From NCBI GenBank assembly GCA_040756905.1, contig JBFLYD010000009.1, forward strand, positions 4,854 through 68,853: a stretch of DNA of 64,000 nt, in the 5' to 3' direction. The notes under the pieces are model-generated. The model had not been told where the DNA came from and did no database searches. It saw only the letters and a list, made by a program, of their open reading frames with translations. This DNA is from Acidobacteriota bacterium (GTDB taxonomy: Bacteria > Acidobacteriota > Aminicenantia > JBFLYD01). Position numbers and translations under genes: made by a program. Every line of letters starts with the position of its first letter. Position 1 is the first letter of the stretch. This document shows, piece after piece, positions 10,812 through 26,271 of this stretch.

Positions 10812-11728
10812 ATTTATCCGTAGATTTAAAATTTTTAAAGCTTAAAAATCCGATTTTAACTGCGAGTGGAACTTTTGGGTACGGAATCGAATTTTTACCT
10901 TTTTATGACCTCTCAATCCTTGGAGGAGTTATAGTCAAGGGGCTTTTTTTAAATGAAAAGAAAGGGAATCCTCCACCCCGGCTTTCTGAAACTCCCTCTG
11001 GACTTTTAAACTCGATAGGGCTTCAGGGGATTGGAGTCAAGAGATTTTATGAGGAAGTTTTTCCAGAATTAAAAAAATTTAACACAGAAATCCTGATAAA
11101 TGTCTGTGGTGATATTGATGAAGAGTATGCAGAAGTTGTGGATTTCTTTAAAAAAGAGGAAAGAATCTCAGGATTTGAATTGAACATATCATGTCCAAAT
11201 ATAAAAAAAGATGGGATGTGTCCTGCGATGGAACCAGATTGGACTTACAGGGTTGTAAAAATTGTAAGGGAGGTTACAGAAAAGCCAATCATTACAAAAT
11301 TATCACCCAATGCAGGGGATATAAAATCTGTTGCGATTTCCGCAGAGGAGGCTGGCTCTGATGGTATATCTCTTATCAACACAATCCTTGGGATGGCAGT
11401 TGATTGGAAAGAAAAAAAATCCAGGCTTGGCAGTTTATTTGGAGGTTTATCAGGCCCAGCGATTAAGCCAGTAGCTTTGAGGATGGTTTATCAGGTTATA
11501 AATGCAGTACAGATTCCTGTTATTGGTATAGGAGGAATCTTTTCCGGTGAGGATGTTATGGAGTTTTTATGTGTTGGAGCTAAAGCAGTTGAAATAGGAA
11601 CAGCAAACTTAGTAGATCCCTATGCCTGTAAGAGAATTATAGATGAGTTAAAGGAAATTTGTGAAAGAAATTCTGTAGAAAGAATAGAAAATTTCATCGG
11701 GAGTTTTAAAAGTGAAAGAATTGATTAA
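10805..11728 (+). CDS. pyrD: Dihydroorotate dehydrogenase catalytic subunit PyrD (class 1B).
   Basis: LKNPILTASGTFGYG, NISCPN and IGIGGI motifs in the TIM-barrel DHOD family layout. Confidence 0.9.
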   Translation: MVDLSVDLKFLKLKNPILTASGTFGYGIEFLPFYDLSILGGVIVKGLFLNEKKGNPPPRLSETPSGLLNSIGLQGIGVKRFYEEVFPELKKFNTEILINVCGDIDEEYAEVVDFFKKEERISGFELNISCPNIKKDGMCPAMEPDWTYRVVKIVREVTEKPIITKLSPNAGDIKSVAISAEEAGSDGISLINTILGMAVDWKEKKSRLGSLFGGLSGPAIKPVALRMVYQVINAVQIPVIGIGGIFSGEDVMEFLCVGAKAVEIGTANLVDPYACKRIIDELKEICERNSVERIENFIGSFKSERID

Positions 11729-12425
11729 AAGGGTAATCGTAGCTCTTGATGTTGAGAGAATTGAGAGAGCTTTAGAAATCGTTGATTTTCTTGAAGAAAT
11801 CGAAATTTTTAAGGTAGGTCCTGGATTATTCCTTTCCTCAAGAGGAAAAATTATTGAAAAGCTACAGAAAAAAAATAAGAAAATTTTTCTTGATTTGAAA
11901 TTTCATGACATACCAAACACAGTTTTTAATGCAGTAAAAGAAGCAACAAAAATGGGAGTTTCCATGATGACAGTTCATTCGCTCGGAGGAAAAGAAATGC
12001 TTATGAAAGCTTCAGAGGCAGCTCAGAATCAAGCTGAGATTTCAGGAATTCCCAGACCATTGATAATGGCAGTGACAATACTTACGAGCATGGAACAGAA
12101 AAACTTGAAAGAGATCGGAATAGAAAAAGATGTGGGGTCGATGGTTTTAAACCTTGCAAGGATTTCCAAAGAATCAGGTTCAGATGGAGTTATTTCATCA
12201 CCCCTGGAGATTGAAATTATAAAGAAAAATTTAGGAGATGATTTTTTAGTTGCCACCCCTGGGATAAGGATTGAGAAAGTTCCTCAAGATGACCAGAAAA
12301 GAGTTCTTTCTCCTCTTGAGGCAATAGAACTTGGTGCAGATTATATAATTATTGGTAGAACGATAATTGAAAAACCTGAAAAATCTTACAAAGATTTGCT
12401 GAAACTTTTTAATAAAACCTCTTAA
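11712..12425 (+). CDS. pyrF: Orotidine 5'-phosphate decarboxylase PyrF.
   Basis: VIVALDV...LDLKFHDIPNTV...PGI motifs. Overlaps pyrD. Confidence 0.85.
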   Translation: MKELIKRVIVALDVERIERALEIVDFLEEIEIFKVGPGLFLSSRGKIIEKLQKKNKKIFLDLKFHDIPNTVFNAVKEATKMGVSMMTVHSLGGKEMLMKASEAAQNQAEISGIPRPLIMAVTILTSMEQKNLKEIGIEKDVGSMVLNLARISKESGSDGVISSPLEIEIIKKNLGDDFLVATPGIRIEKVPQDDQKRVLSPLEAIELGADYIIIGRTIIEKPEKSYKDLLKLFNKTS

Positions 12426-13002
12426 CTGAGTAAAAAGAAGCGCCTATTGCTCCCACTACAATTCCTACAATTACAAAAACTACAATTGAAATTAGTATCA
12501 CAACAATTGTGTAACCAAGAGCTTTTTCTTTCGGAGTTTCCATAAGAGAAGGAATTCCTAAATATAGAAGATAAAGTCCATAAAGAGCTATAAGTAAACC
12601 AATGGGTGAAAGTTGAGGTATTATGTTAAAAATCCCTCCAATCCATGCGGGAGTGAATGAAAAAATTGCAATTTTCATTGCATTTAAACTATTCTGGATT
12701 GAGCTAAAACTTGGTGCCAGTAAGTTAATTATCGATCCGATTATGTAAACACCGATCAATCCTATTATGTAAGAGAAGATCATTATAAGAAAAGCTGAAC
12801 CTACAGGAACTCTGTATTTTAATCCCAGGAATGAATATCCGATCAATGAGGAACCTATAAAAGTTGCCACAGCCGGGATCGCAGCTAAAATAACCGCATA
12901 ACTTGTAAATAACTGTGATATAGTAATCTGCTCTTCTTTAATTTTTATCCATGTGTCTTTAGGCTTAAAAAGAACTTCCTGAACCCTATCTATCAAGTTC
13001 AT
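12409..13002 (-). CDS. Yip1-family integral membrane protein.
   Basis: 197 aa with five predicted TM helices after a 35-aa N-terminal cytoplasmic segment, in the bacterial Yip1/DUF1282-like layout. Confidence 0.55.
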   Translation of the reverse strand: MNLIDRVQEVLFKPKDTWIKIKEEQITISQLFTSYAVILAAIPAVATFIGSSLIGYSFLGLKYRVPVGSAFLIMIFSYIIGLIGVYIIGSIINLLAPSFSSIQNSLNAMKIAIFSFTPAWIGGIFNIIPQLSPIGLLIALYGLYLLYLGIPSLMETPKEKALGYTIVVILISIVVFVIVGIVVGAIGASFYSVKRFY

Positions 13003-13071
13003 TTTTACCTCCTAAAAAAGTTTTAAAGAGTATAAAAACATATTGCACTAATGTCAAGAAAAATTAAAAGC

Positions 13072-13118: not shown

Positions 13119-14027
13119 TTAAAAGACATAGGAGAGGGCAAAGCCTGTTTGGGCAAAGAACATCATCATATACATGTGTTTCCATGATATATGGTTTTCC
13201 TCGATGGCTAATTCTTCAGGTTTTTTAAGAATTAGATAATCTACATAAAATCCCCATAGGACAAGGGAAAACCCAAGAATAGTTAAAAGAAAAGGATTTC
13301 CTGTGAGTACCCTAAATTTTGCTCCGAGCGGGATTAAAAAGAAGGGAAGTATGAAGAAAGGCGATATCATCCATGCTGCCTTTTTAACGCCATATTTAAC
13401 TGGAAGAGTTATGCAGTTGTTTTTTTTATCCCCTTCGATATCAGCGAAGTCTTTTGTTGATGTTGCTCCTAACAAAAAAAGTCCAAATATAAGGCCTATG
13501 AACCAGGGTTCCACTCCAATTATCGATTTTACAGAGGACCAGCCAGCTACTTTAAGAAGGATTCCCCTCGGGAGAGCAATCGTTATGTTGGCTGGAATTC
13601 CCCATCTTTTTGTTCTGAATGGATAACCTGAATAAATATAAGTCATCGAAGCAGCAATTAAGACCAGGATAAAGCATTCTTTTCTGCCTTCAGGGGATAC
13701 GTACCATGCCATTATAAATGCAAGGATGTAAAGGAAAACTGAAAATACATAAGCTTCTTTTAATGATAGTCTTCCCGATGGGAGCGGTCTTTTTGGCTTG
13801 TTAATCCTGTCTATTTCTATATCAAAAATCTGATTCAACCCATTTGATGCTCCATTTAATATTGCTGCCATAAACGAGCCCAGAATTAAATAAAATAAAT
13901 AACTCCATTGAAAAGGAGTCTTAGGATAGGCTCCCCAGGAGCAAATTCCTCCAGAAAGAAAACCCAAAAATGGAGCTATTAAGGTAAAGGGTCTCATAAA
14001 CTCTAAGTAGAGTTTTATTTTTTTCAT
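13119..14027 (-). CDS. UbiA-family prenyltransferase (DGGGPS/chlorophyll-synthase-like).
   Basis: Two Asp-rich motifs, NQIFDIEIDRINKPKRPLPSG and DFADIEGDKK. About 8 TM segments. Confidence 0.8.
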   Translation of the reverse strand: MKKIKLYLEFMRPFTLIAPFLGFLSGGICSWGAYPKTPFQWSYLFYLILGSFMAAILNGASNGLNQIFDIEIDRINKPKRPLPSGRLSLKEAYVFSVFLYILAFIMAWYVSPEGRKECFILVLIAASMTYIYSGYPFRTKRWGIPANITIALPRGILLKVAGWSSVKSIIGVEPWFIGLIFGLFLLGATSTKDFADIEGDKKNNCITLPVKYGVKKAAWMISPFFILPFFLIPLGAKFRVLTGNPFLLTILGFSLVLWGFYVDYLILKKPEELAIEENHISWKHMYMMMFFAQTGFALSYVF

Positions 14028-15364
14028 TTGACAAGAGAGAAAATGAAAATTGAAATCAAACCACCAGAAAGTGTGTTTATAAAGTTTGTTATTTCATTTG
14101 AAATTATTCCCTTTACCTCAATGGTTGAGCTTATAATGTTTTCAAAAAAATTTGCTAAAAGACAGGATATAAGAACGATTAGAATTGAAATGCTATTGAT
14201 GAGTCCAATGTAAAAAGATACAAAAGAAATCAGTAAGGCAGAGAAAATTCCAAAGAGAGTCCCCTCCAATGAGAATCCTCCTGGTTCACCTGCCGTGACT
14301 TTTTTTAAACTTAAAATTGAATAGGTCTCTTTTCCAAATACTTTTCCGAGTTCAGATGATGCGGTATCAAAAGTCCCTGTGGCAAGAGATGATACAAATG
14401 CTATGGAAAACAGATCTTTTGAATAAGAAAATGCTAAATAACTGAAAAAAAGGGGAGCAAATCCCTTTCCGAAAACATTTTTGAAGGACCTTGCACCTTT
14501 TCTTTCTTCAGCTATGTGTAATTTTTCCTTTTTTTTAAGTCCTATCTTTGTTGATACTGTTCCGATAAGAAAAAATAAAAGGAGAATTAAAAACCCTGAA
14601 AAACCTAAAAATGTATAAATGCCAGTCCCAACAAAAATTCCAGATATAAAGCCGGAAATACTCACACCTCTGATTGCAATTCCTAAAATTGCGAAAATTA
14701 AATTAATGAATATCCCAGTTAAAAAATTAGAGATTAAAATGTCTTTCTTCAGAGAAAAAATAAAAGGGTCGGCTAAAAGCAGAACATACAGAAATATTCC
14801 AGATGAAATGGGTATCAGTAGGTTATCGTTAATTCTGATGGGAAGAGATTCAATGAATGAGGCAAAAATCGCCCCTAAAAAAGGAACAATGAACAAAGAA
14901 TAACTGTTTAAAACTCCTTCATATCTTGCTCCAACCCACCATATAAAAAAACTCATTCCAGCGAACCCGAATATAAAACAGATAATAGTTCCTAAATAGC
15001 TTTTCTCTTTATTCCAGGGGATTTTTTTCTTACCGAAGTGAATTCCAATTAAAGTGGCCATTCCATCCCCTAAAGCCATCATTGCCCATCCAGCTGCTGC
15101 TATGTGAAGATGATTTCTAAAAAGGATGATTAAGATAAACACCGAGAGAGGATAAAATATAATCCCTCCTATTCCTTTTAACTCTTCTTTTCTGAAAATT
15201 TTATCTTTTCCTATTTTTTTTAATATGGTGAGATTAAACCCTAAAGCGACCAGAGCAAGAAATGCTGCCTGATACCATTCCAGCCATCTTAGCAATAATG
15301 CGAAGCCTCCCATTGTTATGTGGATTATTTTTCTTAGATCTTCTGAAAATTTAGCGTTCATCAT
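14024..15364 (-). CDS. Fusion membrane protein with an N-terminal CTP-dependent polyprenol kinase-like domain (dolichol kinase/VTE5/CdsA superfamily) and a C-terminal DUF92 domain (TMEM19/VTE6-like).
   Basis: The N-terminal half has GDGMATLIGIHFGKKKIPWNKEKSYLGT, matching the GDxxAxxxGxxxGxxK signature. The C-terminal half has TGTFDTASSELGKVFGK, the DUF92 DTxxSExG signature. Overlaps UbiA by 4 nt. Confidence 0.6.
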   Translation of the reverse strand: MMNAKFSEDLRKIIHITMGGFALLLRWLEWYQAAFLALVALGFNLTILKKIGKDKIFRKEELKGIGGIIFYPLSVFILIILFRNHLHIAAAGWAMMALGDGMATLIGIHFGKKKIPWNKEKSYLGTIICFIFGFAGMSFFIWWVGARYEGVLNSYSLFIVPFLGAIFASFIESLPIRINDNLLIPISSGIFLYVLLLADPFIFSLKKDILISNFLTGIFINLIFAILGIAIRGVSISGFISGIFVGTGIYTFLGFSGFLILLLFFLIGTVSTKIGLKKKEKLHIAEERKGARSFKNVFGKGFAPLFFSYLAFSYSKDLFSIAFVSSLATGTFDTASSELGKVFGKETYSILSLKKVTAGEPGGFSLEGTLFGIFSALLISFVSFYIGLINSISILIVLISCLLANFFENIISSTIEVKGIISNEITNFINTLSGGLISIFIFSLVK

Positions 15365-16367
15365 TAAGTTTAATCACCTCGTCTTGAATCCATTCAATTG
15401 TATCTTTCAAGCCCTCTTCAAGCGATCTCCATTTATAGTCAAGCAATTTTTCAGCTTTTTCAGAAGAATAAGCCCAATTTTTTGTCAACAGTTTAACATC
15501 CCTGTGGATAAATTTTGGCTGTTTGTTTGTTATTTCTGAATAAAGATACTGAACGATACCAAAGGAATAGGCAATTGCTGGAGGAATTTTCAATTTAGGA
15601 GGTTTTATTCCTGTATATTTTTCTAATATTTCAAACACATTTTTATTTAACGTATTTTCTCCTCCCAGGATGAATTCTTCCCCAAATTTTTCCTTTTCCC
15701 ATGCTGAAATTATTCCCTCCACAACATCATCCACATAAACAAAGTTCCACAAATATTTGCCCTTTCCTATCATTCCAGGAAGATTTCCCTGTATATGGTC
15801 TAAAATCAGTTTTACGATAAAATTGCCGTCGGTAAGCTCTCCGGGTCCGTATATAATTCCAGGGAAAACAATGATTATTGGGTTTCCTTTTTTTTTATGT
15901 ATTTTTGAAATCTCATATCCCAGATATTTTGTTCTTTCATATTCGTTGAAAAATTTAACTCTTTCTTTGAAATCATCTTCATTGAAAATTTTATCTCCTG
16001 TTGGTCCGGATACGAAAAAAGTTGACACATAAAGGAACTTTAATTTTTTTTGTTCACAGATGTTCAATAAATTTTGCAATGCTTGGACATTTATTTCATA
16101 GTATTCCTTTTTGTTCTTTACCCAGCTCTTCACAAGAGCTGCGAGGTGTAATATCCCATCGATTCCATCGATTGTTTTATTTATTATTTCCCTATCCCGA
16201 ATATCTCCAAAAACAATTTCCAATTCTTCAGGAAAGTCTTTTATTTTTGTTATATCCCTAGCTACAATTCTTAATTTATATCCTTTTCTGTGTAAAGCAA
16301 AGCACAATCTTTTTCCTAAAAAACCAGTTCCTCCTGTGACGAGGAGTTTCACACTATAACTCGCCAC
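15351..16367 (-). CDS. NAD-dependent epimerase/dehydratase family protein (extended SDR).
   Basis: N-terminal LLVTGGTGFLGKRL, a YxxxK region and 338 aa overall. Confidence 0.7.
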   Translation of the reverse strand: MASYSVKLLVTGGTGFLGKRLCFALHRKGYKLRIVARDITKIKDFPEELEIVFGDIRDREIINKTIDGIDGILHLAALVKSWVKNKKEYYEINVQALQNLLNICEQKKLKFLYVSTFFVSGPTGDKIFNEDDFKERVKFFNEYERTKYLGYEISKIHKKKGNPIIIVFPGIIYGPGELTDGNFIVKLILDHIQGNLPGMIGKGKYLWNFVYVDDVVEGIISAWEKEKFGEEFILGGENTLNKNVFEILEKYTGIKPPKLKIPPAIAYSFGIVQYLYSEITNKQPKFIHRDVKLLTKNWAYSSEKAEKLLDYKWRSLEEGLKDTIEWIQDEVIKLNDER

Positions 16368-17293
16368 CAGTTGATTAAATCCAGTAATGTTTTTTCAATT
16401 GGAATTTCAGGTTTCCAGCCTGTATCTTTTCTCAATTTATTGAAATCCCCATGGAGAACAGGTATGTCATGCTTTCTCTTTTTCTTCGTGTCTTCTATTA
16501 TTCTTATTTTTTTATCTGTATAAGATAGGAGTATTTCAAGAATTTCTCTTATTCTGTAAGTTTTACCAGAGCATGTTTGGTAGATTTCTCCTCTTTTCCC
16601 TTTGGTGAGTATAAGATAGTAAGCTTTGATTACATCTCTAACATCAGAAAAATCTCTTTTAATTTCTAAATTTCCTGTTTTTATAACAGGAGGAGATAAT
16701 CCTTTCTCAATAAATATAATCTGTCTGGCAAGGTCAGAACAAACAAAATTTTCGCTCTGTCCAGGTCCTGTATAGTTAAATGATCTTACAAAATACACGT
16801 TGAGTCCTTCTCCATTAAGATAGAGTTTGCCAAGGAGTTCTTGGGCTGCTTTTGATGTGGCATATGGATTTACCGGATTTATCGGGAATTTTTCATTTAT
16901 GGGTTGTTTAACTTGTGGAACATTTCCATACATTTCTGCTGATCCAACAAGAAGAATCTTTGAATCAGGTGAAGTATGCTTGATTGCTTCGAGGAGGTTA
17001 AGGGTTCCAAAAAAATTGGTTTGAAAGGTTAACCTTTTATTCAGCCAGCTTTTACTTACATTTGATATGGCAGCAAAGTGGAATACAAGGTCTGGTTTTA
17101 AATCTTTAATAATTGCTTTTAAAGATTTAAATTTTCTGATATCAAGAACATAAATTCCCTTCTTGTCGGAGGGGAACTTTGGATCTGCAATTCCGAATAC
17201 ATCGATATATTTTTTTCTTAAAAATTCTTTTAAGTGGCCTCCAGCAAAGCCAGTAATCCCTGTGATAAGAGCTCTCAAATTCTTTCTCTCCAC
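16349..17293 (-). CDS. GDP-mannose 4,6-dehydratase/Rmd-like NDP-sugar dehydratase or reductase (extended SDR).
   Basis: ALITGITGFAGGHLKEFL, SKAAQELL and NYTGPGQSENFVCSDLARQI. A paralogue of the next gene. Confidence 0.7.
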   Translation of the reverse strand: MERKNLRALITGITGFAGGHLKEFLRKKYIDVFGIADPKFPSDKKGIYVLDIRKFKSLKAIIKDLKPDLVFHFAAISNVSKSWLNKRLTFQTNFFGTLNLLEAIKHTSPDSKILLVGSAEMYGNVPQVKQPINEKFPINPVNPYATSKAAQELLGKLYLNGEGLNVYFVRSFNYTGPGQSENFVCSDLARQIIFIEKGLSPPVIKTGNLEIKRDFSDVRDVIKAYYLILTKGKRGEIYQTCSGKTYRIREILEILLSYTDKKIRIIEDTKKKRKHDIPVLHGDFNKLRKDTGWKPEIPIEKTLLDLINWWRVIV

Positions 17294-18231
17294 CAGTTAA
17301 GCAGATCTTGAAGTGTCTGTTCAAATGGAATTTCTGGTTTCCATTTTGTTTTTTCTCTAAATTTTGTGCTATCCCCAATAAGAAGCATGACATCCGAAGG
17401 TCTTAATCTTTCCTCGTCCAGCTTAATTTCAATTTTTTTATTTGTGTATCTCAGAAGTATATTAAGCACCTCTTTTATTGAATAGGCCTTGCCAGAACTT
17501 ATGTTATAGACCTCTCCTTCATCTCCCTTTTCTAATGAAAGCCAGTAGGCTTTTACTGTGTCTCTTACATCAGTAAAATCTCTCCTTGCATCAAGATTTC
17601 CAGTGAATATTACAGGGTCTCTTTCTCCTCTTTCTATTTCAGCTATCTGTTTTGAAAAATTTGAAGTTACAAAAACTAAACCTCTACGAGGACCTGTGTG
17701 ATTGAATGCCCTGGTTCTTACTGTTCTTAACCTATAACTCTTAAAGTACTGATATGCGAGTAAATCCTGGGAAACTTTGCTAACTGCATAGGGACTCAGA
17801 GGTCTGAGAGGATTTGTTTCTTTTATCGGAATTTCTTCTTCATAAACTAATCCGTACTCTTCGCTGGAGCCTGCAATGTGAATTTTAGGATCCAATTTTA
17901 AATCTAAAATTGCTTCAAAGAGATTTATCTCGCCTATTACATTTATTGCGAATGTTTCTGCTGGTAATTTCCATGATGCTGGAACAAAGCTCTGGGCTGC
18001 TAAATGGAATATCCAGTCTGGTTTAACATTTTTCAGTACATGTTTAATGGAAGAGAGATCCTTCAAATCACCTTCAATTAGATTGATTTTATTTAAGATT
18101 CCCCTGATGTTATCTAAAGAACTCCTCCATCTTCCCAATCCCCATATTTCAACTCCAGGCTGATTGTTTAGCACATACTCTGCCAAATGACTTCCTACAA
18201 ACCCTGTGATGCCAGTAATTAGAATTCTCAT
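17275..18231 (-). CDS. GDP-mannose 4,6-dehydratase/Rmd-like NDP-sugar dehydratase or reductase (extended SDR).
   Basis: ILITGITGFVGSHLAEYVL, PYAVSKVSQDLL and FNHTGPRRGLVFVTSNFSKQIAEIE, resembling the Gmd/Rmd NHxxPRRG...FVTRKI signature. Confidence 0.7.
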   Translation of the reverse strand: MRILITGITGFVGSHLAEYVLNNQPGVEIWGLGRWRSSLDNIRGILNKINLIEGDLKDLSSIKHVLKNVKPDWIFHLAAQSFVPASWKLPAETFAINVIGEINLFEAILDLKLDPKIHIAGSSEEYGLVYEEEIPIKETNPLRPLSPYAVSKVSQDLLAYQYFKSYRLRTVRTRAFNHTGPRRGLVFVTSNFSKQIAEIERGERDPVIFTGNLDARRDFTDVRDTVKAYWLSLEKGDEGEVYNISSGKAYSIKEVLNILLRYTNKKIEIKLDEERLRPSDVMLLIGDSTKFREKTKWKPEIPFEQTLQDLLNWWRERI

Positions 18232-19271
18232 TTCACCTCCTCATAATAGCTTTTATAAAACTTCTTGAATTCATCAGACTCTTCTTTTATTTTTCTCCAC
18301 CAGGAAACGTTTTCTCTATACCACTTGATTGTCAGCTTTAATCCCTCATTTATAGAAATTTCAGGCTGCCAGCCCAATTTTTTTATCTTCTCCCATTTCA
18401 AAGAGTATCTTTTGTCGTGTCCTGGTCTGTCCTTTACGAATTTTATTAGAGAGTCAGGTTTATTGAGCAACTCTAAAATCTTATTTGCTATATAAACGTT
18501 TGGAAATTCCTGAGATGCAGCAATGTTATAAACTTCTCCTATTTCTCCTTTTTTTATTATAAGGTCTATCGCTCCACAGCAATCTGATACATACAGCCAA
18601 TCCCTTATGTTTTGTCCATCTCCGTAAAGCGGGAGCTCCCTGTCTTCTAAAGCATTGGTTATAAACAATGGAATTAGTTTTTCCGGGAATTGATGGGGGC
18701 CATAATTATTACATGGTCTTAAAATTATAACTGGAAGGTTAAAAGTTTTAAAGTAAGAATATGCCAACCTGTCACCTCCTGCCTTACTTGCTGAATAAGG
18801 AGATGAAGGCATTAAAGGGTCATCTTCGGAGAATGAACCATTTTCAATGCTTCCATACACTTCATCGGTTGATACATGGATGAATAATTTATCTTTAAAC
18901 TTTTTTAATTCATCCAGAAGGGTGAAAGTTCCAAGGACATCTGTAAGTATAAATTCTTCAGGGAAAAGTATCGATCTATCCACATGGGTTTCAGCAGCAA
19001 AATTTACTATGACATCAGATTCAGTCAATAATTTTCTTATTAATTCACGGTCTCTTATATCACCCTTGTAGAATTTGTATCTTTCATCGTTTTCAATTTC
19101 TTTCAGATTTTCTAAATTTCCTGCATAAGTTAATTTATCTATATTTAAAATCTTAATGTCAGGGTATTTTTTTAAAAGATGTTTTATAAAATTTGAGCCA
19201 ATGAATCCAGCTCCTCCTGTAATGAGAAATTTTTTACCCATCCTTTCTGCTCCAATCATATGGAATATCAT
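18228..19271 (-). CDS. rfbB: dTDP-glucose 4,6-dehydratase (RmlB).
   Basis: KFLITGGAGFIGSNFIKHLL, the STDEVYG region and PYSASKAGGD. Confidence 0.85.
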   Translation of the reverse strand: MIFHMIGAERMGKKFLITGGAGFIGSNFIKHLLKKYPDIKILNIDKLTYAGNLENLKEIENDERYKFYKGDIRDRELIRKLLTESDVIVNFAAETHVDRSILFPEEFILTDVLGTFTLLDELKKFKDKLFIHVSTDEVYGSIENGSFSEDDPLMPSSPYSASKAGGDRLAYSYFKTFNLPVIILRPCNNYGPHQFPEKLIPLFITNALEDRELPLYGDGQNIRDWLYVSDCCGAIDLIIKKGEIGEVYNIAASQEFPNVYIANKILELLNKPDSLIKFVKDRPGHDKRYSLKWEKIKKLGWQPEISINEGLKLTIKWYRENVSWWRKIKEESDEFKKFYKSYYEEVK

Positions 19272-19689
19272 TCTTATGGGGGTCTATCCTTATTTCATCA
19301 GGATTATCGTATTTGTAAGGCTCTGTGGGAATGTTCATTACAATTGCTTCCTCCTCTCCGATACATTTCCATCCATGGAAAACATTGGGTGGAATCTGAA
19401 CAAGTTGGGGGTTATAATTTCCAAGAAAAAACTCGTTTAATTCATTGAACGTGGGAGAGTTTTTTCTGCTGTCATAGAGAACCAGTTTTATCATTCCATA
19501 TAAACAAACAATGTTGTCGAACTGTTCTTCATGAAGATGCCATGCTTTTACAACTCCTGGATAAGTAGTTGATACATATACCTGCCCAAATTTTTTGAAT
19601 AATTTTTCATCACATCTGAGTATTTCCATAAGCCTTCCTCTCTCATCAGGGATTACCCTTAAATTCTTTATCTCAACTCCTTGTATCAT
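19234..19689 (-). CDS. rfbC: dTDP-4-dehydrorhamnose 3,5-epimerase-like cupin (RmlC family, short form).
   Basis: 151 aa with DERGRLMEI...KAWHLH...VPPNVFHGW, the cupin core of the RmlC family. Confidence 0.7.
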   Translation of the reverse strand: MIQGVEIKNLRVIPDERGRLMEILRCDEKLFKKFGQVYVSTTYPGVVKAWHLHEEQFDNIVCLYGMIKLVLYDSRKNSPTFNELNEFFLGNYNPQLVQIPPNVFHGWKCIGEEEAIVMNIPTEPYKYDNPDEIRIDPHKNDIPYDWSRKDG

Positions 19690-19697
19690 CTTCCCTC

Positions 19698-20762
19698 CTA
19701 TTTAATTCCGATTTCAGAATTTTCTCCGATCATAAATCTATATGCTTCTGGCTTTTTCAAATCTTTTTTTATTTTGGAAAATCTCCCGATGAGGCTTTCT
19801 TCAATTTTGCTCTTTATGCCATCGATTATACTTCCCTCCAAGACAATGCTATTTTCTATCTCGGTATCTTTTATGTATGAATTTTTTTCTATCGAGGTAA
19901 AAGGACCTATGTAGGAATTAATTATTTTGCATCTTTCACCGATTATTGCAGGACCCCTTATTACACTTTCTTTCAGTTCTACATCTTTTTCAATTTGCAC
20001 TCTTCCTTCTATTTTTGACTGATTTTCTATTTGAATTTCTATTTTACTTTCGATTGTCTCCAAAATAAGTCTGTTAGCTTCGAGTATATCCTCAAGTTTG
20101 CCCGTATCTTTCCACCATCCGCTAACAAGATGCGATTTTACGTTATACCCATTATCTATTAAATACTGAATTGCATCGGTAATTTCTAGTTCATTTCTCC
20201 ATGAAGGTTTTAGTGATTTAACAGCTTTGAAAATGTTTTCATCGAAAATATATACACCAACAAGGGCTAAATTTGATGGAGGAGTTTTAGGTTTTTCTAT
20301 AAGTCTTATGACTTTCTCTCCATCCAGCTCAGCCACTCCAAATTGTTCTGGATTAGGAACAGGACATAATAGTATGAGGGAATTTGGCTTTTCTTTTAAA
20401 AATTCTTCATAAAAAGATTTTATTCCACTCTTTAAAATGTTGTCCCCCAAATACATGATGAATGGCTCATTCTTTAAAAAACTCTCAGAAATCAATACAG
20501 CATGGGCAAGTCCCAATGGTTCTGGCTGATCAATGTATGTAACCTTAACATTCCATCTGGAACCATCTCCAAGAGCTTCGACTATATCCTTTTTTGTTTC
20601 TCCGACTATTATTCCGATTTCTTTTATTCCAACTTCTGAAAGAGCTTCCAAACCGTAGAAAAGAACAGGCTTGTTGGCAACTGGAACCAATTGTTTTGCC
20701 TGGCTGTAAGTTAAAGGTCTTAACCTTGTTCCCTTTCCCCCACTTAAAATCAATCCTTTCAT
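19698..20762 (-). CDS. rfbA: Glucose-1-phosphate thymidylyltransferase-like NDP-sugar pyrophosphorylase (RmlA, long form with a C-terminal left-handed beta-helix).
   Basis: MKGLILSGGKGTRLRPLT...AKQL nucleotidyltransferase motif. The C-terminal hexapeptide-repeat region gives 354 aa. Confidence 0.8.
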   Translation of the reverse strand: MKGLILSGGKGTRLRPLTYSQAKQLVPVANKPVLFYGLEALSEVGIKEIGIIVGETKKDIVEALGDGSRWNVKVTYIDQPEPLGLAHAVLISESFLKNEPFIMYLGDNILKSGIKSFYEEFLKEKPNSLILLCPVPNPEQFGVAELDGEKVIRLIEKPKTPPSNLALVGVYIFDENIFKAVKSLKPSWRNELEITDAIQYLIDNGYNVKSHLVSGWWKDTGKLEDILEANRLILETIESKIEIQIENQSKIEGRVQIEKDVELKESVIRGPAIIGERCKIINSYIGPFTSIEKNSYIKDTEIENSIVLEGSIIDGIKSKIEESLIGRFSKIKKDLKKPEAYRFMIGENSEIGIK

Positions 20763-22925
20763 TTAAAACCCCCTTCCACCGAGTAAATCCTGAGCTAAGC
20801 CCAGATTTGCTAATCCTATGTTAAACCTTATTTGGTGTTCTTTCCTGTTGATATATCTCGTCAAATCTATACGTAAATATTGAAATGAGAAATTGAGGCA
20901 CTGGTAATCAAAGCCGAATTTTATCGATGTGAACTGCCTTATTTTTAAGACAAAATCATAATCCACCTCACCGGTAAAATCAATTGGTGTATAGGGTATT
21001 TTTAAATGGGTGTAAATTCTCAGCTGGTTATAATATCTTTCAGATTTTGTTTCAGTTATTATATTGGAGATAGACCAGGAGATGTTCAAATCTGCATTCT
21101 TAGAAGGAGAATTAAACCCGACCCCAAGACTGACATCTTTAAATCTTCTGAGATAATCATAGTTTATTCTGAAATGGGCATTATAGTGTTGAGTTGGAGA
21201 GAATCTTAAATAAGAACCCCAGTTAGGTTTTAAGGGTTTTTTAGTTTTCATGTTTAAATATCTATATTGGTAAAGAGAAAACGAAAATATTTCGACGGGT
21301 GTCAATTGTTCTCCTCCGAGATTGCGCTTTGCCAAAATTCTATTTGTTAGCATGAACGATATTTGGTTTGGAATTGAATAATGAAAATAATACCAGTAAT
21401 ACCATGATTCACTGAAATCCACCTCTGGCACTCTATATATGATTTTTGACATCTCTTCGAACTGGAAAGTTTTATTATAAACAATTCTTGGTTCTATGAT
21501 GTGTTTAAATTTGGGCGAAAAGGAAAAATTCGGAGTGTTAAAGATTCTGTTGAAAATTGGCCCAACCACTTCAATACTAAATTGAGGCATTTTTATGTGG
21601 ATTGGATCATCGCTGAGTATCATCTTCCCTTTTTCTATTCTGTAACTTTTGAAATAAATTGAATTACTCATGTTAAACTCGGGAGAGACCGATAACCAGG
21701 GAAAAGGTGATAAGGGAAGGGAAAATGATGGATTAAAAATAAAACGATTTAAAAGCAGAGGTTGTCCACCAGGAATTTTTCTTTTTAACCTTCCGAATGA
21801 TGAATTTAAAGAGAAATAAAGGGGAAGAGAAAATACTCTTGATTTTGTTTTATAAAATTGAAACTCAGGTAATCTATAACCTGCGAAGGAATAATCCGAG
21901 CCTAAGAAAAAAGTTTCAGACCTGTCAGCTCTTAGATAAAAACTATAATTCTTATATGTTTTTGAAAGATAAAATATAGAGTTTAGAGTTCCTATTGTGA
22001 TGAGATTAAAATTGTTTTCAAAATTCTGAAGAAAATTAACTGTACTCTGGTAATTAACACTCGCTCTTGCATATATATCCCAGAATAATCTATGCCTTGC
22101 ATCTCCTATTATCAAATAATCACTCTGTCTGTTTAAGATCTGGTCTTTTTTGTAGAAAAAATTGTAGAGTTTAATGTTTCCGTAATTCCCATGGTTCAAA
22201 ACCCATCTTATCTCCGCTCCTTGTCCGTTCCCTTTCTTTGAATAGATATCGTAATTAAAAGTTATATCAGCGCTTCTCCCAAGGGCTAAGAAGAAAGATT
22301 GGTTTAGAATAGTTCCTTTAATGCTTGAATGTCCAATTTGAGGGATCAAGAATCCTGACTTGCGACCTTCTTTTGGGAGAGGATACCGGATATAGGGGAT
22401 GTAAAATACAGGAATTCCTTTTAACCAGAAAGTTGCATTCCACATATCCACATAATTTTCTCTTTTAATTTTTCCTCCAGAAGTGGAAATCTTCCATCGA
22501 GGGTTGGGTTGCAAACAGGAGGTGAAAGATGCCTTTTTAAACAGATAGACATCTTCATCTGTTTTTTTTGAATGCTTTGCTAAAAAGAAAAGACCTGGTT
22601 CAACGATGCCAAATGTATTCCACATTTCACCTCGTTCATTCTCCAGATTCATAACAATCTTTTCAGCTGAAATACTTTGATTTGTTAATTCTAAAACTAC
22701 ATTTCCTTCTGCTTTAAGGATAATATTTTTACTGTCGAACTCAATTCGGTCTGCAAAAATTTTTACATCTCTGAAAGCAATTTCCACATCTCCCCAGGCG
22801 ATATAGGTATCTTTTATTCTTTCATGGTTTTTCGCAATTATTTTTGGGAATTCGCTCACTGGAAATTCTTCCTGAGAGAAAAGGTTAAATGAAATCAATA
22901 AGATGAGAAAAATTTTATATTTCAT
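20763..22925 (-). CDS. lptD: LPS-assembly outer-membrane protein LptD (OstA family).
   Basis: Signal peptide, an N-terminal OstA-like beta-jellyroll (FADRIEFDSKNIILKAEGNVVL) and a large C-terminal beta-barrel region. 720 aa. Confidence 0.7.
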   Translation of the reverse strand: MKYKIFLILLISFNLFSQEEFPVSEFPKIIAKNHERIKDTYIAWGDVEIAFRDVKIFADRIEFDSKNIILKAEGNVVLELTNQSISAEKIVMNLENERGEMWNTFGIVEPGLFFLAKHSKKTDEDVYLFKKASFTSCLQPNPRWKISTSGGKIKRENYVDMWNATFWLKGIPVFYIPYIRYPLPKEGRKSGFLIPQIGHSSIKGTILNQSFFLALGRSADITFNYDIYSKKGNGQGAEIRWVLNHGNYGNIKLYNFFYKKDQILNRQSDYLIIGDARHRLFWDIYARASVNYQSTVNFLQNFENNFNLITIGTLNSIFYLSKTYKNYSFYLRADRSETFFLGSDYSFAGYRLPEFQFYKTKSRVFSLPLYFSLNSSFGRLKRKIPGGQPLLLNRFIFNPSFSLPLSPFPWLSVSPEFNMSNSIYFKSYRIEKGKMILSDDPIHIKMPQFSIEVVGPIFNRIFNTPNFSFSPKFKHIIEPRIVYNKTFQFEEMSKIIYRVPEVDFSESWYYWYYFHYSIPNQISFMLTNRILAKRNLGGEQLTPVEIFSFSLYQYRYLNMKTKKPLKPNWGSYLRFSPTQHYNAHFRINYDYLRRFKDVSLGVGFNSPSKNADLNISWSISNIITETKSERYYNQLRIYTHLKIPYTPIDFTGEVDYDFVLKIRQFTSIKFGFDYQCLNFSFQYLRIDLTRYINRKEHQIRFNIGLANLGLAQDLLGGRGF

Positions 22926-24532: not shown

Positions 24533-25633
24533 TTATTCCATAATCTGTATGAATATTTCCACAGTTTTAGGACAGAATTGAATTCTTGAATATTCTTTAA
24601 GAATATTTAGGGCAACTTTTTTTGAAAATGCCTTTCTATAAGGTCTATCTGTAGTAAGAGCATCAAAGGTATCAGCAACTGAAATTATTCTTGCCAGAAC
24701 TGGAATTTCTTCTTCTTTTAATCCTGATGGATATCCACTCCCATTATACCATTCATGGTGATGTTTTATTCCAATTACTGCATCTTCCAATCCTTTTATT
24801 TTTTCTAATATTTCAGCTCCGAATTGGGAATGTTTTTTTATAAACTCAAATTCTCCTTTGGTAAGCTTTCCTTTTTTTGTAAGAATTCTATCAGGGATAC
24901 CAATTTTCCCCACATCATGGAGGATTGATGCAATTCTTAAATTTTCATTTTCTTTTTTGGATAAATTCATTTTTTCAGAAATTTTAAGGGAATAATCAAG
25001 AACACGTTTTGTGTGTCCTCCAGTATACGGATCTCTCTTTTCTATAGCTGTTGCCAGAGCGAAAGAAGTTTGGATGAAGATATCTTTAATTTTTTGGTAA
25101 AGCCTTGCATTTTCAAGGGCTATTGAAATAGGTGAAGCTAAACCCATTATCTTTTCTTCATCGGAATGGGTAAAATTTTCACCACCTTTTTTATTAAGCA
25201 GTTGAAGAACTCCTATTAATTTTTCCTTAGCTATAAGGGGGACTGTGAGGATTGACTTCGTTATGAAATGGGATTCTCTGTCAAAATATTTATTCCATCT
25301 AAGATCTTTCTTTACATCCTCAACTATAAGAGGTTTTTTTGTGGAAGCAACCCATCCTGCTATTCCCTGTCCCATTTTTAACCTTTTTTTCTTGATTTTT
25401 TCTGCTTTTTCTCCTCTGACCATTCTAAAAAATAATTCATTTTCTTCCTCATCCAGTTCCCATATAGAGCTTGTCTCTGCATTCAGGGTTTTCTCTGCTA
25501 TCTCCATTGCTTTTTCAAGAACATCTTCAATTTCCAGCGATTTACCAAGAAGTTGAGCTGCGTTCAATAGATTTTTTAGTACTCTGTTTTCTTTTTCTAA
25601 TATCTTAAAAGAATTTTCCATTTCTCTAATCAT
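24533..25633 (-). CDS. GAF domain plus HD-GYP domain protein (putative c-di-GMP phosphodiesterase).
   Basis: HDVGKIGIPDRIL and HHEWYNGSGYP (HD...GYP) in the C-terminal half. The N-terminal GAF-like region is predicted from its position only; it is roughly 150 aa long. Confidence 0.8.
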   Translation of the reverse strand: MIREMENSFKILEKENRVLKNLLNAAQLLGKSLEIEDVLEKAMEIAEKTLNAETSSIWELDEEENELFFRMVRGEKAEKIKKKRLKMGQGIAGWVASTKKPLIVEDVKKDLRWNKYFDRESHFITKSILTVPLIAKEKLIGVLQLLNKKGGENFTHSDEEKIMGLASPISIALENARLYQKIKDIFIQTSFALATAIEKRDPYTGGHTKRVLDYSLKISEKMNLSKKENENLRIASILHDVGKIGIPDRILTKKGKLTKGEFEFIKKHSQFGAEILEKIKGLEDAVIGIKHHHEWYNGSGYPSGLKEEEIPVLARIISVADTFDALTTDRPYRKAFSKKVALNILKEYSRIQFCPKTVEIFIQIME

Positions 25634-26271
25634 TTAAAATACTCGTCAGCTTCTCTATCAAGAAGAACCATTTTTTCCTCTAATTCTTTTCTCAGTTCTT
25701 CTATTTGGGAGTCATTCAAATTATCTGGAACTTTAAATCTCTCTCCATAAAAAATTGCACATTTGTTAAAGGGTGAAAATATCAAATGTTTATCCCATCC
25801 CTTTAAGATTTTTTTTATTTTGCAGGAAAATGTTAATGGAATAATCGAAGAGCCTGTTTGCTTTGCTAAGTAAAGGGCTCCTGGTTTAAGTTTCCTCCCT
25901 GGACCTCGTGGGCCATCTGGAATTATAGCAATGATATTTTGAAATACTTTATCTTTCATCGCTTTAAAAGCTTCAATTCCCCCTCTTGAACTCGATCCTC
26001 TTATAGGAATATATCCAAATCTTTTTAAAACCACTGCAGCCAGATCTCCATCTTTACTGAGGCTAACAAGAGGCATTATGCTTTGTTTTCTGTGGACATA
26101 AATAGGAAGGATTATCCTTCCATGCCATAACAAAAGAATAACTTTTTCTCCACTTCTTTTTAAGTTTTCAAAATTCTCTCTTCTCACAAATTTTATTTTT
26201 GAAGTTTTTGAGATAAAAATAATGATAAAAAAAATCAACTCTTTCAGAATGAAAAGAAACAATTTCCTCAT
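25630..26271 (-). CDS. DUF374/lysophospholipid-acyltransferase-like protein.
   Basis: 213 aa with an N-terminal TM. LLWHGRIILP...SLSKDGDLAA...RGSSSRGG resembles the DUF374 family. Low certainty. Confidence 0.45.
   Translation of the reverse strand: MRKLFLFILKELIFFIIIFISKTSKIKFVRRENFENLKRSGEKVILLLWHGRIILPIYVHRKQSIMPLVSLSKDGDLAAVVLKRFGYIPIRGSSSRGGIEAFKAMKDKVFQNIIAIIPDGPRGPGRKLKPGALYLAKQTGSSIIPLTFSCKIKKILKGWDKHLIFSPFNKCAIFYGERFKVPDNLNDSQIEELRKELEEKMVLLDREADEYFK

What the first reader, a model, noticed from the sequence alone, without database searches (positions are those of the whole stretch)
14024..15364. Fusion of a CTP-dependent polyprenol-kinase-like domain with a DUF92 (VTE6-like) domain
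The N-terminal half carries the GDxxAxxxGxxxGxxK signature of the dolichol kinase/phytol kinase (VTE5)/CdsA superfamily. The C-terminal half carries the DUF92 DTASSELG signature; plant VTE6 (phytyl-phosphate kinase) is a DUF92 protein. In plants these two activities convert phytol to phytyl-P to phytyl-PP as separate proteins. A single-polypeptide fusion of both, placed directly upstream of a UbiA prenyltransferase, is a neat Rosetta-stone linkage. It is also a candidate two-step polyprenol salvage kinase feeding the adjacent transferase.
Basis: partly seen in the sequence, partly recalled or inferred. Interest (0 to 1): 0.65.

Follow-up and report, generated by a model that had tools for sequence, protein, structure and literature searches.

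The report
Fused two-step polyprenol kinase candidate
This membrane protein joins a dolichol/phytol-kinase-like domain to a VTE6-like (DUF92) domain, probably converting a free isoprenoid alcohol to its diphosphate in two steps; the fusion is real and widespread but was already described in archaea in 2015, so it is a useful but not new kind of enzyme.

Summary
ORF 14024-15364 (minus strand, 446 aa) has a full-length DUF92/PF01940 C-terminal half (E 2.6e-41). Its ~208-aa N-terminal half carries the stated GD..A...G...G..K motif.

Pfam and NCBIfam miss the N-half. Four things place it in the kinase branch of the CdsA/CarS/dolichol-kinase superfamily rather than CdsA proper:
- sub-threshold PF01148 hits in 7 of 29 homologues;
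- an invariant R-K-x-x-H "clamp" like that of validated prenol kinases;
- absence of the CdsA signature.

The architecture recurs in at least 568 genome loci, mostly Acidobacteriota, with some Planctomycetota and Nitrospinota. Standalone N-domain genes also exist.

The same fusion was published for archaea (Makarova 2015). The UbiA link is frequent (58 of 76 loci, ATGA overlap here) but absent in all five closer relatives examined. The near-universal partner is an upstream string of NDP-deoxysugar/extended-SDR genes.

The adjacent UbiA is closest to archaeal DGGGP synthase and chlorophyll synthase, which use C20 donors.

Verdict: a new bacterial member of a known fusion type. The two-step CTP-dependent kinase function is plausible, but its physiological product is unresolved.

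The parts
14024..15364 (-). Complete fusion ORF, 446 aa: an N-terminal prenol-kinase-like domain plus a C-terminal DUF92 domain.
   Evidence: ORF listing. 100% identical to NCBI MAG protein P0001. AlphaFold pLDDT 95.6, pTM 0.92, 14 helices.
14741..15364 (-). N-terminal half, residues 1-208: a seven-helix domain of the CdsA/CarS/dolichol-kinase superfamily, kinase-like.
15320..15334 (-). R11-K12-I-I-H15, a putative CTP-phosphate 'charged clamp'.
   Evidence: R11 and H15 are invariant in 70 sequences. The same R-K-x-x-H clamp is described for the validated prenol kinase PfPolK (PMC10849223). Coordinates verified.
14987..15070 (-). GDGMATLIGIHFGKKK-IPWNKEKSYLGT: the core motif at the end of helix 4 plus the following K-rich loop.
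   Evidence: G99, D100, G107, N118 and G125 are invariant; A103, P116, W117 and K121 are at least 90% conserved. Coordinates verified.
14810..14851 (-). E172-S...N-D180-N181...P185: the second acidic motif of the N-half.
   Evidence: E172, D180 and N181 are invariant. Coordinates verified.
14063..14707 (-). DUF92 (PF01940) match, residues 220-434.
   Evidence: E 2.6e-41, profile positions 2-250 of 251. TIGR00297 169 bits, below cutoff.
14345..14368 (-). DTASSELG, the DUF92 signature in helix 11. It is positionally equivalent to the GDG motif of the N-half.
   Evidence: D333, T334, E338 and G340 are invariant. hhalign aligns it in register with GDGmA..G. Coordinates verified.
13119..14027 (-). 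UbiA-family prenyltransferase, closest to DGGGP synthase and chlorophyll synthase, translationally coupled to the fusion by an ATGA overlap.
   Evidence: PF01040 E 2e-39. All NCBIfam matches are below cutoff. Nearest PDB sequences: 6m31 DGGGPS at 1.1e-23 and ChlG at 1.7e-17. Junction verified. Adjacent in 58 of 76 loci.
15351..16367 (-). HpnA-like extended SDR. Its last 14 nt overlap the start of the fusion gene.
   Evidence: PF01370 E 1e-35. TIGR03466 HpnA 196 bits, below cutoff. Nearest PDB sequence 3wj7 at 2.2e-39. Junction verified. An SDR gene precedes the fusion in 76 of 78 loci.
16349..20762 (-). Upstream co-directional string with overlapping junctions: RmlA-type nucleotidyltransferase, FdtA/RmlC-like isomerase, RmlB-like dehydratase and two GDP-mannose-dehydratase-family SDRs.
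   Evidence: Pfam. Same order in relatives L083-L087 and in most of L001-L080.

Best explanation
The gene encodes one 14-helix inner-membrane enzyme made of two distantly related phosphotransferase domains of the CTP-dependent CdsA/CarS/dolichol-kinase superfamily.

**Proposed mechanism (inferred)**
- The N-half works like dolichol kinase, VTE5 or PolK. It would phosphorylate a free polyprenol using CTP. R11-K12-x-x-H15 would hold the triphosphate, and D100 and D180 would bind metal.
- The C-half (DUF92) works like VTE6. It would add the second phosphate to give the polyprenyl diphosphate, with D333 and E338 at the equivalent site.
- Fusion would hand the lipid monophosphate from one site to the other within the membrane.
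- In this genome the product most likely feeds the translationally coupled UbiA prenyltransferase. That enzyme's nearest relatives use C20 diphosphates (GGPP or phytyl-PP). All of this sits within a cell-envelope operon that also makes NDP-deoxysugars.

**Shown:** domain identities, conservation, fold, fusion and synteny.

**Inferred:** kinase rather than cytidylyltransferase chemistry, the order of the two steps, the substrate chain length, and the link to UbiA.
For: - The C-half is a full-length PF01940 match. That family contains the experimentally characterised phytyl-P kinase VTE6.
- PF01148 is the only recurrent family for the N-halves (7 of 29).
- The CdsA signature is absent, and PF01148 matches end before its C-terminal ~50 positions.
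- The R-K-x-x-H clamp has the same pattern as that of the validated prenol kinase PfPolK. R11 and H15 are invariant.
- Both halves are equally conserved (0.56 each), and each has its own near-invariant polar residues.
- The two halves have parallel secondary structure and motif placement and align in register at the motifs.
- The same two-domain architecture was classified by HHpred as Sec59-like plus COG1836 in archaea.
- UbiA overlaps by ATGA, is adjacent in 58 of 76 loci, and is nearest to DGGGPS and ChlG. In plants, VTE5 and VTE6 feed UbiA-family enzymes.
Against: - There is no biochemical data for any member of this fused family.
- No solved dolichol-kinase-type structure turned up in the PDB sequence or fold searches, so kinase and cytidylyltransferase chemistry cannot be told apart by structure.
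- UbiA is not adjacent in the five closer relatives examined or in Planctomycetota.
- The constant neighbours are sugar-nucleotide-type SDRs. This fits a carrier-lipid role at least as well as a prenyl-donor role.
- A free-prenol source in these bacteria is unknown.
Confidence: 0.5

Rival explanations
1. Carrier-lipid kinase. The protein's job is to make or recycle polyprenyl monophosphate (undecaprenyl-P-like), the carrier for an envelope glycan built from the deoxysugars encoded upstream. This would mirror dolichol kinase in glycosylation. The DUF92 half would have an accessory or different lipid-phosphate role, and UbiA would be a secondary association.
For: - An extended-SDR/NDP-sugar gene directly precedes the fusion in 76 of 78 loci.
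- The full string LptD, RmlA, FdtA/RmlC (or RmlD), RmlB, GMD, GMD, SDR, fusion is kept in relatives that lack UbiA downstream.
- Outer-membrane biogenesis genes lie next to it in L084.
- BacA/UppP lies two genes downstream in a Brocadia locus.
- Makarova 2015 linked the archaeal family to UppS and to glycosylation/isoprenoid metabolism.
Against: - A carrier needs only the monophosphate, yet the VTE6-like half is as conserved as the N-half.
- No glycosyltransferase, phosphoglycosyl transferase or flippase is part of the conserved module.
- UbiA adjacency in 58 of 76 loci with overlapping start and stop codons is unexplained.
Confidence: 0.25
2. Cytidylyltransferase reading. One or both halves act like CarS or CdsA, using CTP to convert a lipid phosphate into a CDP-activated lipid for head-group attachment. 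The substrate could be the phosphorylated product of the DGGGPS-like UbiA.
For: - The only curated families touched are cytidylyltransferase models.
- In archaea CarS acts directly after DGGGPS, and the neighbouring UbiA is most similar to DGGGPS.
Against: - The CdsA signature is absent, and neither the window's N-half nor its 28 homologues match any other Pfam family recurrently.
- The characterised DUF92 member is a kinase.
- The R-K-x-x-H clamp is described for prenol kinases.
- The fusion occurs without an adjacent UbiA in many genomes.
Confidence: 0.1
3. Lipid-linked sugar pathway analogous to mycobacterial decaprenyl-phospho-arabinose synthesis. The kinase would supply polyprenyl-P. The UbiA-fold enzyme would attach an activated sugar phosphate to it, as DPPR synthase does. 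The membrane-proximal SDR would then remodel the lipid-linked sugar, as DprE2 does.
For: SDR, kinase and UbiA co-occur in one overlapping-gene module in most Acidobacteriota loci. The precedent of a UbiA-family enzyme using polyprenyl-P as acceptor comes from general knowledge and was not tested here.
Against: - The UbiA is closest to DGGGPS and ChlG. The only other PDB sequence hit at E <= 1e-3 is an archaeal 4-hydroxybenzoate prenyltransferase homologue, so no phosphoribosyltransferase-type UbiA appears.
- No DPPR-synthase model is among its top 25 NCBIfam matches.
- The role of the DUF92 half is unexplained.
Confidence: 0.08
4. The N-half is a non-catalytic membrane scaffold, or the ORF is an artefactual merger of two genes.
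For: No curated family recognises the window's N-half.
Against: - There are invariant polar residues inside helices: R11, H15, N44, D100, N118, E172, D180 and N181.
- Complete standalone genes of this domain exist.
- The length of ~446-465 aa is uniform across hundreds of genomes.
- The window ORF is uninterrupted, and the two-domain model is confident and compact.
Confidence: 0.03

Closest known systems
Archaeal two-domain arCOG02245 proteins (e.g. Mbar_A3310 of Methanosarcina barkeri), Makarova et al. 2015, PMC5898192
   Same: Same architecture: an N-terminal ~210-aa Sec59/dolichol-kinase-like domain fused to a C-terminal COG1836/pfam01940 domain. Both domains were recognised as remote members of the cytidylyltransferase (pfam01148) superfamily with conserved acidic residues, and were predicted to act in an isoprenoid step requiring kinase activity.
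   Different: The present family is bacterial: Acidobacteriota, some Planctomycetota and Nitrospinota. Its conserved context is NDP-sugar/SDR genes and often a UbiA, not UppS. Whether the bacterial and archaeal fusions share one origin was not tested.
Plant and cyanobacterial VTE5 (phytol kinase) plus VTE6 (phytyl-phosphate kinase)
   Same: The same two protein families act in sequence with CTP to make a prenyl diphosphate, which UbiA-family prenyltransferases then use.
   Different: They are separate polypeptides. The review literature states that the salvage pathway is composed of two independent enzymes (PMC9782597). Here they are fused, and the N-half is too divergent to reach PF01148. The substrate is unknown, and most of these hosts are not known phototrophs, so phytol is not an obvious substrate.
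Dolichol kinase Sec59/DOLK, farnesol kinase FOLK and Plasmodium PolK (COG0170 kinases)
   Same: A multi-helix membrane domain with an N-terminal R-K-x-x-H clamp, a GD..A...G motif and a later acidic motif. It lacks the CdsA C-terminal signature.
   Different: No curated model detects the window's N-half. PfPolK is modelled with eight helices, against seven here. Activity is untested.
CdsA (4q2e) and CarS (5guf) CTP:lipid-phosphate cytidylyltransferases
   Different: Identity over the aligned residues is only 14-17%. There is no sequence-level hit even with family profiles. The CdsA signature is absent. They transfer CMP, not phosphate.
Archaeal digeranylgeranylglyceryl phosphate synthase (MjDGGGPS, 6m31), for the neighbouring UbiA
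   Same: E 1.1e-23, with both Asp-rich motif blocks nearly identical. Bacterial DGGGPS homologues of unknown role are known.
   Different: It scores below every NCBIfam equivalog cutoff. No GGGPS or G1P dehydrogenase was seen in the module. The acceptor is unknown.

Membership tests
DUF92 / COG1836 / VTE6 family (PF01940) | Significant full-length match to the PF01940 profile above the gathering score. | tested here: met
   E 2.6e-41, 142.1 bits against 27.5, profile positions 2-250 of 251.
DUF92 / COG1836 / VTE6 family (PF01940) | Score above the TIGR00297 hypothetical-equivalog cutoff. | tested here: not met
   169.1 bits against a cutoff of 205.85, although model positions 4-233 of 237 are covered. 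It is therefore a family member but not a trusted equivalog.
DUF92 / COG1836 / VTE6 family (PF01940) | Conserved DT[x][AS]SE[x]G motif. | tested here: met
   DTASSELG at residues 333-340. D333, T334, E338 and G340 are invariant in 70 sequences.
DUF92 / COG1836 / VTE6 family (PF01940) | CTP-dependent prenyl-phosphate kinase activity. | not testable with these tools
   Known only for VTE6 (PMC5745509).
Polyprenol kinases (COG0170: Sec59/DOLK, VTE5, FOLK, PolK), classified in Pfam under PF01148 | Match to PF01148 above the gathering score. | tested here: not met
   The window's N-half gives no hit even at E 10. 7 of 29 homologues hit, best 1.7e-5. The three inspected score 15.5-17.3 bits against a cutoff of 24.
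Polyprenol kinases (COG0170: Sec59/DOLK, VTE5, FOLK, PolK), classified in Pfam under PF01148 | N-terminal R-K-x-x-H charged clamp at the CTP pocket. | tested here: met
   R11-K12-I-I-H15, with R11 and H15 invariant. The clamp is described for PfPolK.
Polyprenol kinases (COG0170: Sec59/DOLK, VTE5, FOLK, PolK), classified in Pfam under PF01148 | GD..A...G core motif, a following K..G, and a later acidic motif. | tested here: met
   G99, D100, G107, N118, G125, E172, D180 and N181 are invariant; A103 and K121 are at least 90% conserved. That this motif set is typical of COG0170 rests on my own knowledge and on the HHpred result reported for the archaeal counterpart.
Polyprenol kinases (COG0170: Sec59/DOLK, VTE5, FOLK, PolK), classified in Pfam under PF01148 | Profile-profile or phylogenetic placement with COG0170 rather than with CdsA or CarS. 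| not tested
CdsA proper (phosphatidate cytidylyltransferase) | C-terminal signature S..KR....KD.......HGG..DR.D. | tested here: not met
   Neither the full pattern nor the relaxed HGG..DR pattern is present. PF01148 matches stop at profile position ~215 of 264.
CdsA proper (phosphatidate cytidylyltransferase) | Match to the NCBIfam CdsA model. | tested here: not met
   Only 2 of 29 N-halves hit, best E 1.7e-4, and the window protein does not.
CarS (CDP-archaeol synthase) | Sequence membership in the CarS family. | tested here: not met
DGGGP synthase (for the neighbouring UbiA) | Score above the equivalog cutoff, and the two Asp-rich motifs. | tested here: inconclusive
   The motifs are present and nearly identical to 6m31. 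The scores of 95.9 and 90.6 bits are far below the cutoffs of 296 and 353.

The most novel reading that the evidence does not exclude
The conserved module of NDP-deoxysugar/SDR genes, the bifunctional prenol kinase and (in most lineages) a DGGGPS-like UbiA encodes an undescribed envelope isoprenoid lipid or glycolipid pathway of Acidobacteriota. In it a free or remodelled polyprenol, rather than a de novo diphosphate, is activated by one fused enzyme and attached by an archaeal-type ether-lipid prenyltransferase. If so, these would be the first gene-assigned bacterial geranylgeraniol and geranylgeranyl-phosphate kinase activities.
Probability: 0.15. Interest if true: 0.7.

Novelty: new member of a known kind. 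Interest (0 to 1): 0.38.

Why it matters
**Gene assignment.** Two-step phosphorylation of free prenols (farnesol, geranylgeraniol, phytol) is biochemically documented from archaea to humans. [quoted passage not shown] The archaeal geranylgeraniol and geranylgeranyl-phosphate kinase activities reported in 1996 are still cited only as activities, without genes (PMC9385802).

**A tractable test system.** A compact bacterial single-polypeptide candidate with two separable active sites could be used to test three things:
- whether DUF92 proteins are general prenyl-phosphate kinases;
- what distinguishes kinase from cytidylyltransferase chemistry in the CdsA superfamily;
- whether fusion channels the monophosphate intermediate.

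It could also serve as a one-gene module for feeding prenols into engineered isoprenoid pathways.

**The operon.** Its tight, cross-phylum linkage to sugar-nucleotide SDRs, and often to a DGGGPS-like UbiA, points to an uncharacterised envelope lipid in Acidobacteriota.

**Annotation.** Public annotation labels these proteins only 'DUF92' and misses the N-terminal catalytic domain.

Tried and rejected
- **Sequence searches against solved structures.** The protein, the N-half profile and the full-length profile all found nothing.
- **Curated families for the N-half.** Pfam at E 10 found nothing. NCBIfam has no kinase-type model.
- **Fold searches.** Foldseek against PDB with the full model gave only a weak CdsA hit among transporter noise. 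The afdb50 library, which would have named dolichol or phytol kinase models, was not available.
- **Internal homology.** hhalign of N-half against C-half was weak (probability 10%, P 0.003). I use it only as in-register support.
- **Neighbourhood analysis.** Single-linkage clustering of all ORFs in the GC-rich loci was swamped by shadow ORFs. A first adjacency count with first-ATG starts under-counted UbiA. Both were replaced by tblastn-projected coordinates.
- **P0159 and P0211.** I suspected reversed-order fusions. P0159 has no DUF92 domain and is not on record for a context look-up. P0211 is an SDR C-terminus joined to the kinase domain, possibly a frameshift across the overlapping gene boundary. 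Neither was pursued further.
- **Literature gaps.** The vom Dorp 2015 VTE6 paper is not held. My recollection that 3wj7 is the aldehyde reductase Gox2253 could not be verified; only the paper's existence was confirmed. It is not used as evidence.
- **Downstream of UbiA.** No universally conserved gene was found there, and no GGGPS-like partner turned up.
- **Promoter and terminator scan.** Uninformative: fewer promoter-like sites than in shuffles.
Full report
**1. What is there.**

Window 14024..15364 (minus strand) is an uninterrupted ATG-started ORF of 446 aa. It is identical to a protein deposited from an Acidobacteriota MAG and named only 'DUF92 domain-containing protein'. The window has ~32% G+C. 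The closest relatives, at 54-57% identity, include one labelled Candidatus Aminicenantia.

GDGMATLIGIHFGKKK is at residues 99-114 and DTASSELG at 333-340.

**2. C-terminal half.**

Pfam gives a full-length DUF92/PF01940 match: residues 220-434, profile positions 2-250 of 251, E 2.6e-41, 142 bits against a 27.5-bit cutoff. NCBIfam TIGR00297 covers the same region but scores 169 bits, below its 205.85 equivalog cutoff.

The link to VTE6 is documented in three steps:
- pfam01940 = COG1836 (PMC5898192).
- COG1836 includes At1g78620 and was predicted to act in 'phytol-phosphate metabolism' (PMC3223725).
- AT1G78620 is VTE6, which converts phytyl-P plus CTP to phytyl-PP (PMC5745509).

**3. N-terminal half.**

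No curated model recognises it in this protein, and public annotations ignore it. It is nevertheless a conserved domain. In a 70-sequence alignment R11, H15, N44, G67, Y71, W93, G99, D100, G107, N118, G125, E172, D180 and N181 are invariant. The N-half is as conserved as the DUF92 half, with a mean top-residue frequency of 0.56 for each.

Evidence for its family:
- (a) PF01148 (CTP_transf_1) is the only family hit repeatedly by homologous N-halves: 7 of 29, best E 1.7e-5. The hits inspected individually score 15.5-17.3 bits, below the 24-bit gathering score. They span profile positions ~62-215 of 264, stopping short of the C-terminal part of the model.
- (b) The CdsA signature is absent.
- (d) The N-terminus carries R11-K12-x-x-H15. 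The paper that validated the Plasmodium prenol kinase PolK describes an Arg29-Lys30-x-x-His33 'charged clamp' closing the CTP pocket (PMC10849223).
- (e) Makarova et al. reported that the first 210 aa of archaeal two-domain COG1836 proteins match COG0170/Sec59 dolichol kinase with 99.85% HHpred probability.

I could not run the equivalent profile-profile test because afdb50 was unavailable. The kinase-branch assignment is therefore well supported but not formally tested.

**4. The two halves resemble each other.**

The DSSP strings of the two halves are parallel: four helices, a K-rich loop with short strands, then three helices. The conserved motifs occupy equivalent places:
- GDG (99-101) in helix 4 and DT.SSE (333-338) in helix 11.
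- KS-YLGT (121-126) and FS-LEGT (364-369), spanning the start of the next helix.
- E172-S at the end of helix 6 and E408-N inside helix 13.
- D180-N and N423-E opening the last helix of each half.

hhalign of the two halves aligns exactly these segments in register, but weakly (P 0.003, probability 10%). This agrees with the published finding that DUF92 is itself a remote pfam01148 relative (HHpred 97.6%). The protein is best seen as a tandem of two anciently diverged paralogous phosphotransferase domains.

**5. Fused versus split.**

The best 80 loci all contain both halves in one ORF. Of these, 75 are Acidobacteriota (Vicinamibacteria, Thermoanaerobaculia, Polarisedimenticolia, Solibacteraceae and others), 4 are Planctomycetota/Brocadia and 1 is Nitrospinota.
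- *N-half reach.* An exhaustive HMM search with the N-half profile found 8,758 representatives at E <= 1e-3 and 453 at E <= 1e-30.
- *Split.* Among the best 150 representatives, lengths are bimodal at ~440-480 aa and ~180-220 aa. Many short ones end 15-20 residues after the DDN..VP motif. One of them, P0126 (199 aa), is a complete gene with its own stop codon inside a contig. It is preceded by a GMD-like SDR and followed by an unrelated gene.

The N-domain therefore also exists on its own, as expected for an autonomous catalytic module. In plants and cyanobacteria the two families are separate proteins.

**6. Genomic context.**

In the window every junction from RmlA to UbiA is an overlap or a gap of at most 8 nt. 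The gene order is:
- RmlA-type nucleotidyltransferase
- FdtA/RmlC-like isomerase
- RmlB
- two GDP-mannose-dehydratase-family SDRs
- HpnA-like SDR
- the fusion
- UbiA

The fusion's ATG lies 14 nt inside the SDR gene, and its stop overlaps UbiA's start as ATGA. LptD lies immediately upstream of RmlA. A 116-nt gap with the best promoter-like site of the region separates UbiA from a Yip1-domain gene.

Across the 80 related loci, using tblastn-projected coordinates:
- UbiA (48-64% identical) is directly downstream on the same strand in 58 of the 76 loci with room. It lies 1.6-3.5 kb away in 3 more and is absent in 15.
- An extended-SDR gene is directly upstream in 76 of 78 (51 HpnA-like, 25 GMD-like).

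However, five relatives examined with precomputed gene calls lack UbiA downstream. These are the four closest (L083, L085, L086, L087; 54-57% identity) and one at 38% (L084). All keep the full upstream string, and convergent unrelated genes follow the fusion. In the Planctomycetota loci the SDR-fusion pair is kept and the next gene is an RlmI-like methyltransferase. One Brocadia locus has BacA/UppP two genes downstream. Nothing beyond UbiA is universally conserved.

The constant partner is therefore the sugar-nucleotide/SDR string, and UbiA is a frequent partner.

**7. The UbiA.**

It has both Asp-rich motifs. Its nearest solved relatives are:
- Methanocaldococcus DGGGP synthase (6m31, E 1.1e-23), with motif blocks almost identical: IFDIEIDRINKP.RPLPSG and KDF.D.EGDKK....LP.KYG.
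- Chlorophyll synthase (E 1.7e-17).
- A 4-hydroxybenzoate prenyltransferase homologue, only at 8e-5.

Its best NCBIfam matches are ChlG, an archaeal-type prenyltransferase, BchG, DGGGPS and homogentisate phytyltransferase. All are far below their cutoffs. These relatives use C20 diphosphate donors (general knowledge), which fits a geranylgeraniol- or phytol-type kinase pair. The acceptor is unknown. Bacterial DGGGPS homologues of unknown function have been noted before.

**8. How it most likely works.**

- *Shown.* A two-domain membrane protein. The C-half belongs to the VTE6 family. The N-half belongs to the CdsA/CarS/DolK superfamily, has kinase-type features and lacks the CdsA signature. 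Both halves are under equal constraint. Synteny with SDRs is tight and synteny with UbiA is frequent.
- *Inferred.* The N-half phosphorylates a free polyprenol with CTP. The C-half phosphorylates the monophosphate. The diphosphate is used by a membrane prenyltransferase, here the coupled UbiA.
- *Confidence.* I put this at about 0.5.
- *Main rival (0.25).* The relevant product is the monophosphate carrier lipid for a glycan made from the upstream deoxysugars. This explains the universal SDR context but not the equally conserved second domain, nor the lack of any glycosyltransferase in the module.
- *CarS-like cytidylyltransferase reading (0.1).* It is kept because structure cannot separate the two chemistries.
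- *DPPR-synthase-like lipid-sugar pathway (0.08).* Speculative.
- *Scaffold or gene-merger artefact (0.03).* Essentially excluded.

**9. Comparison with what is known, and novelty.**

COG1836 was predicted to act on phytol phosphate by comparative genomics in 2011, and VTE6 has since been characterised as the phytyl-phosphate kinase. The very fusion of a Sec59-like domain to COG1836 was described for archaea in 2015.

What appears to be undescribed, in the literature I could search, is twofold:
- the large bacterial family;
- its operon with NDP-sugar SDRs and a DGGGPS-like UbiA.

I therefore class it as a new member of a known kind, with moderate interest (0.38). It is a good experimental handle on the still poorly gene-assigned prenol salvage kinases, and it points to an uncharacterised acidobacterial envelope-lipid module. 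It is not a surprise to a specialist.

Noticed in passing
window 15351-22925 (minus strand); also L083, L084, L085-L087: The co-directional string LptD, RmlA-type nucleotidyltransferase, FdtA/RmlC-like isomerase, RmlB, two GDP-mannose-dehydratase-family SDRs and an HpnA-like SDR always ends in the kinase fusion. The gene order is kept from 55% down to 38% identity relatives. No glycosyltransferase or flippase is part of it.
   Followed up: partly
window 13119-14027 (minus strand): The UbiA neighbour has Asp-rich motif blocks almost identical to Methanocaldococcus DGGGP synthase (6m31). Across the same loci it is much better conserved (48-64% identity) than the fusion protein (30-40%). This suggests stronger constraint or a separate history.
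   Followed up: partly
L081 939-1538 (protein P0126); other ~190-200 aa representatives such as P0149, P0180, P0206, P0208: Complete standalone genes of the N-terminal kinase-like domain exist. At least one still sits behind a GMD-like SDR, but with no DUF92 or UbiA gene after it.
   Followed up: partly
protein P0211 (474 aa): One representative joins the C-terminal part of an Epimerase/SDR domain (residues 2-139) to the kinase-like domain (residues 257-403). It is either a second Rosetta-stone link between SDR and kinase, or a frameshift across the overlapping SDR/fusion gene boundary.
   Followed up: no
L018 8944-9723 (Candidatus Brocadia): BacA/UppP undecaprenyl-diphosphatase lies two genes downstream of the fusion. 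This is another polyprenyl-phosphate recycling enzyme in the neighbourhood, but it may be coincidental.
   Followed up: no
window 12409-13002 (minus strand): A Yip1-domain membrane protein follows UbiA after a 116-nt gap that holds the best sigma-70-like match in the region (13057..13029, 11 of 12). Its 3' end overlaps the end of the convergent ORF 11712-12425 by 17 nt. It is not conserved next to the module in other loci.
   Followed up: partly
window 15351-16367 (minus strand): The HpnA-like SDR's nearest solved relative is 3wj7 ('putative oxidoreductase', E 2.2e-39), far ahead of the sugar-nucleotide epimerases. I recall this entry as an aliphatic aldehyde reductase (Gox2253) but could not verify it. 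If that is right, the SDR might act on a lipid aldehyde or alcohol rather than on a sugar nucleotide.
   Followed up: partly
whole window (composition): G+C is only ~28-39% (mostly ~32%) for a contig attributed to Acidobacteriota. Most related loci from that phylum are G+C-rich enough to produce long shadow ORFs.
   Followed up: no
window 24533-25633, 25630-26271 and 30316-32187 (minus strand): Further upstream on the same strand lie a GAF-HD(-GYP-like) protein, a DUF374 protein and a 623-aa protein with a B12-binding domain. All appear unrelated to the finding.
   Followed up: no
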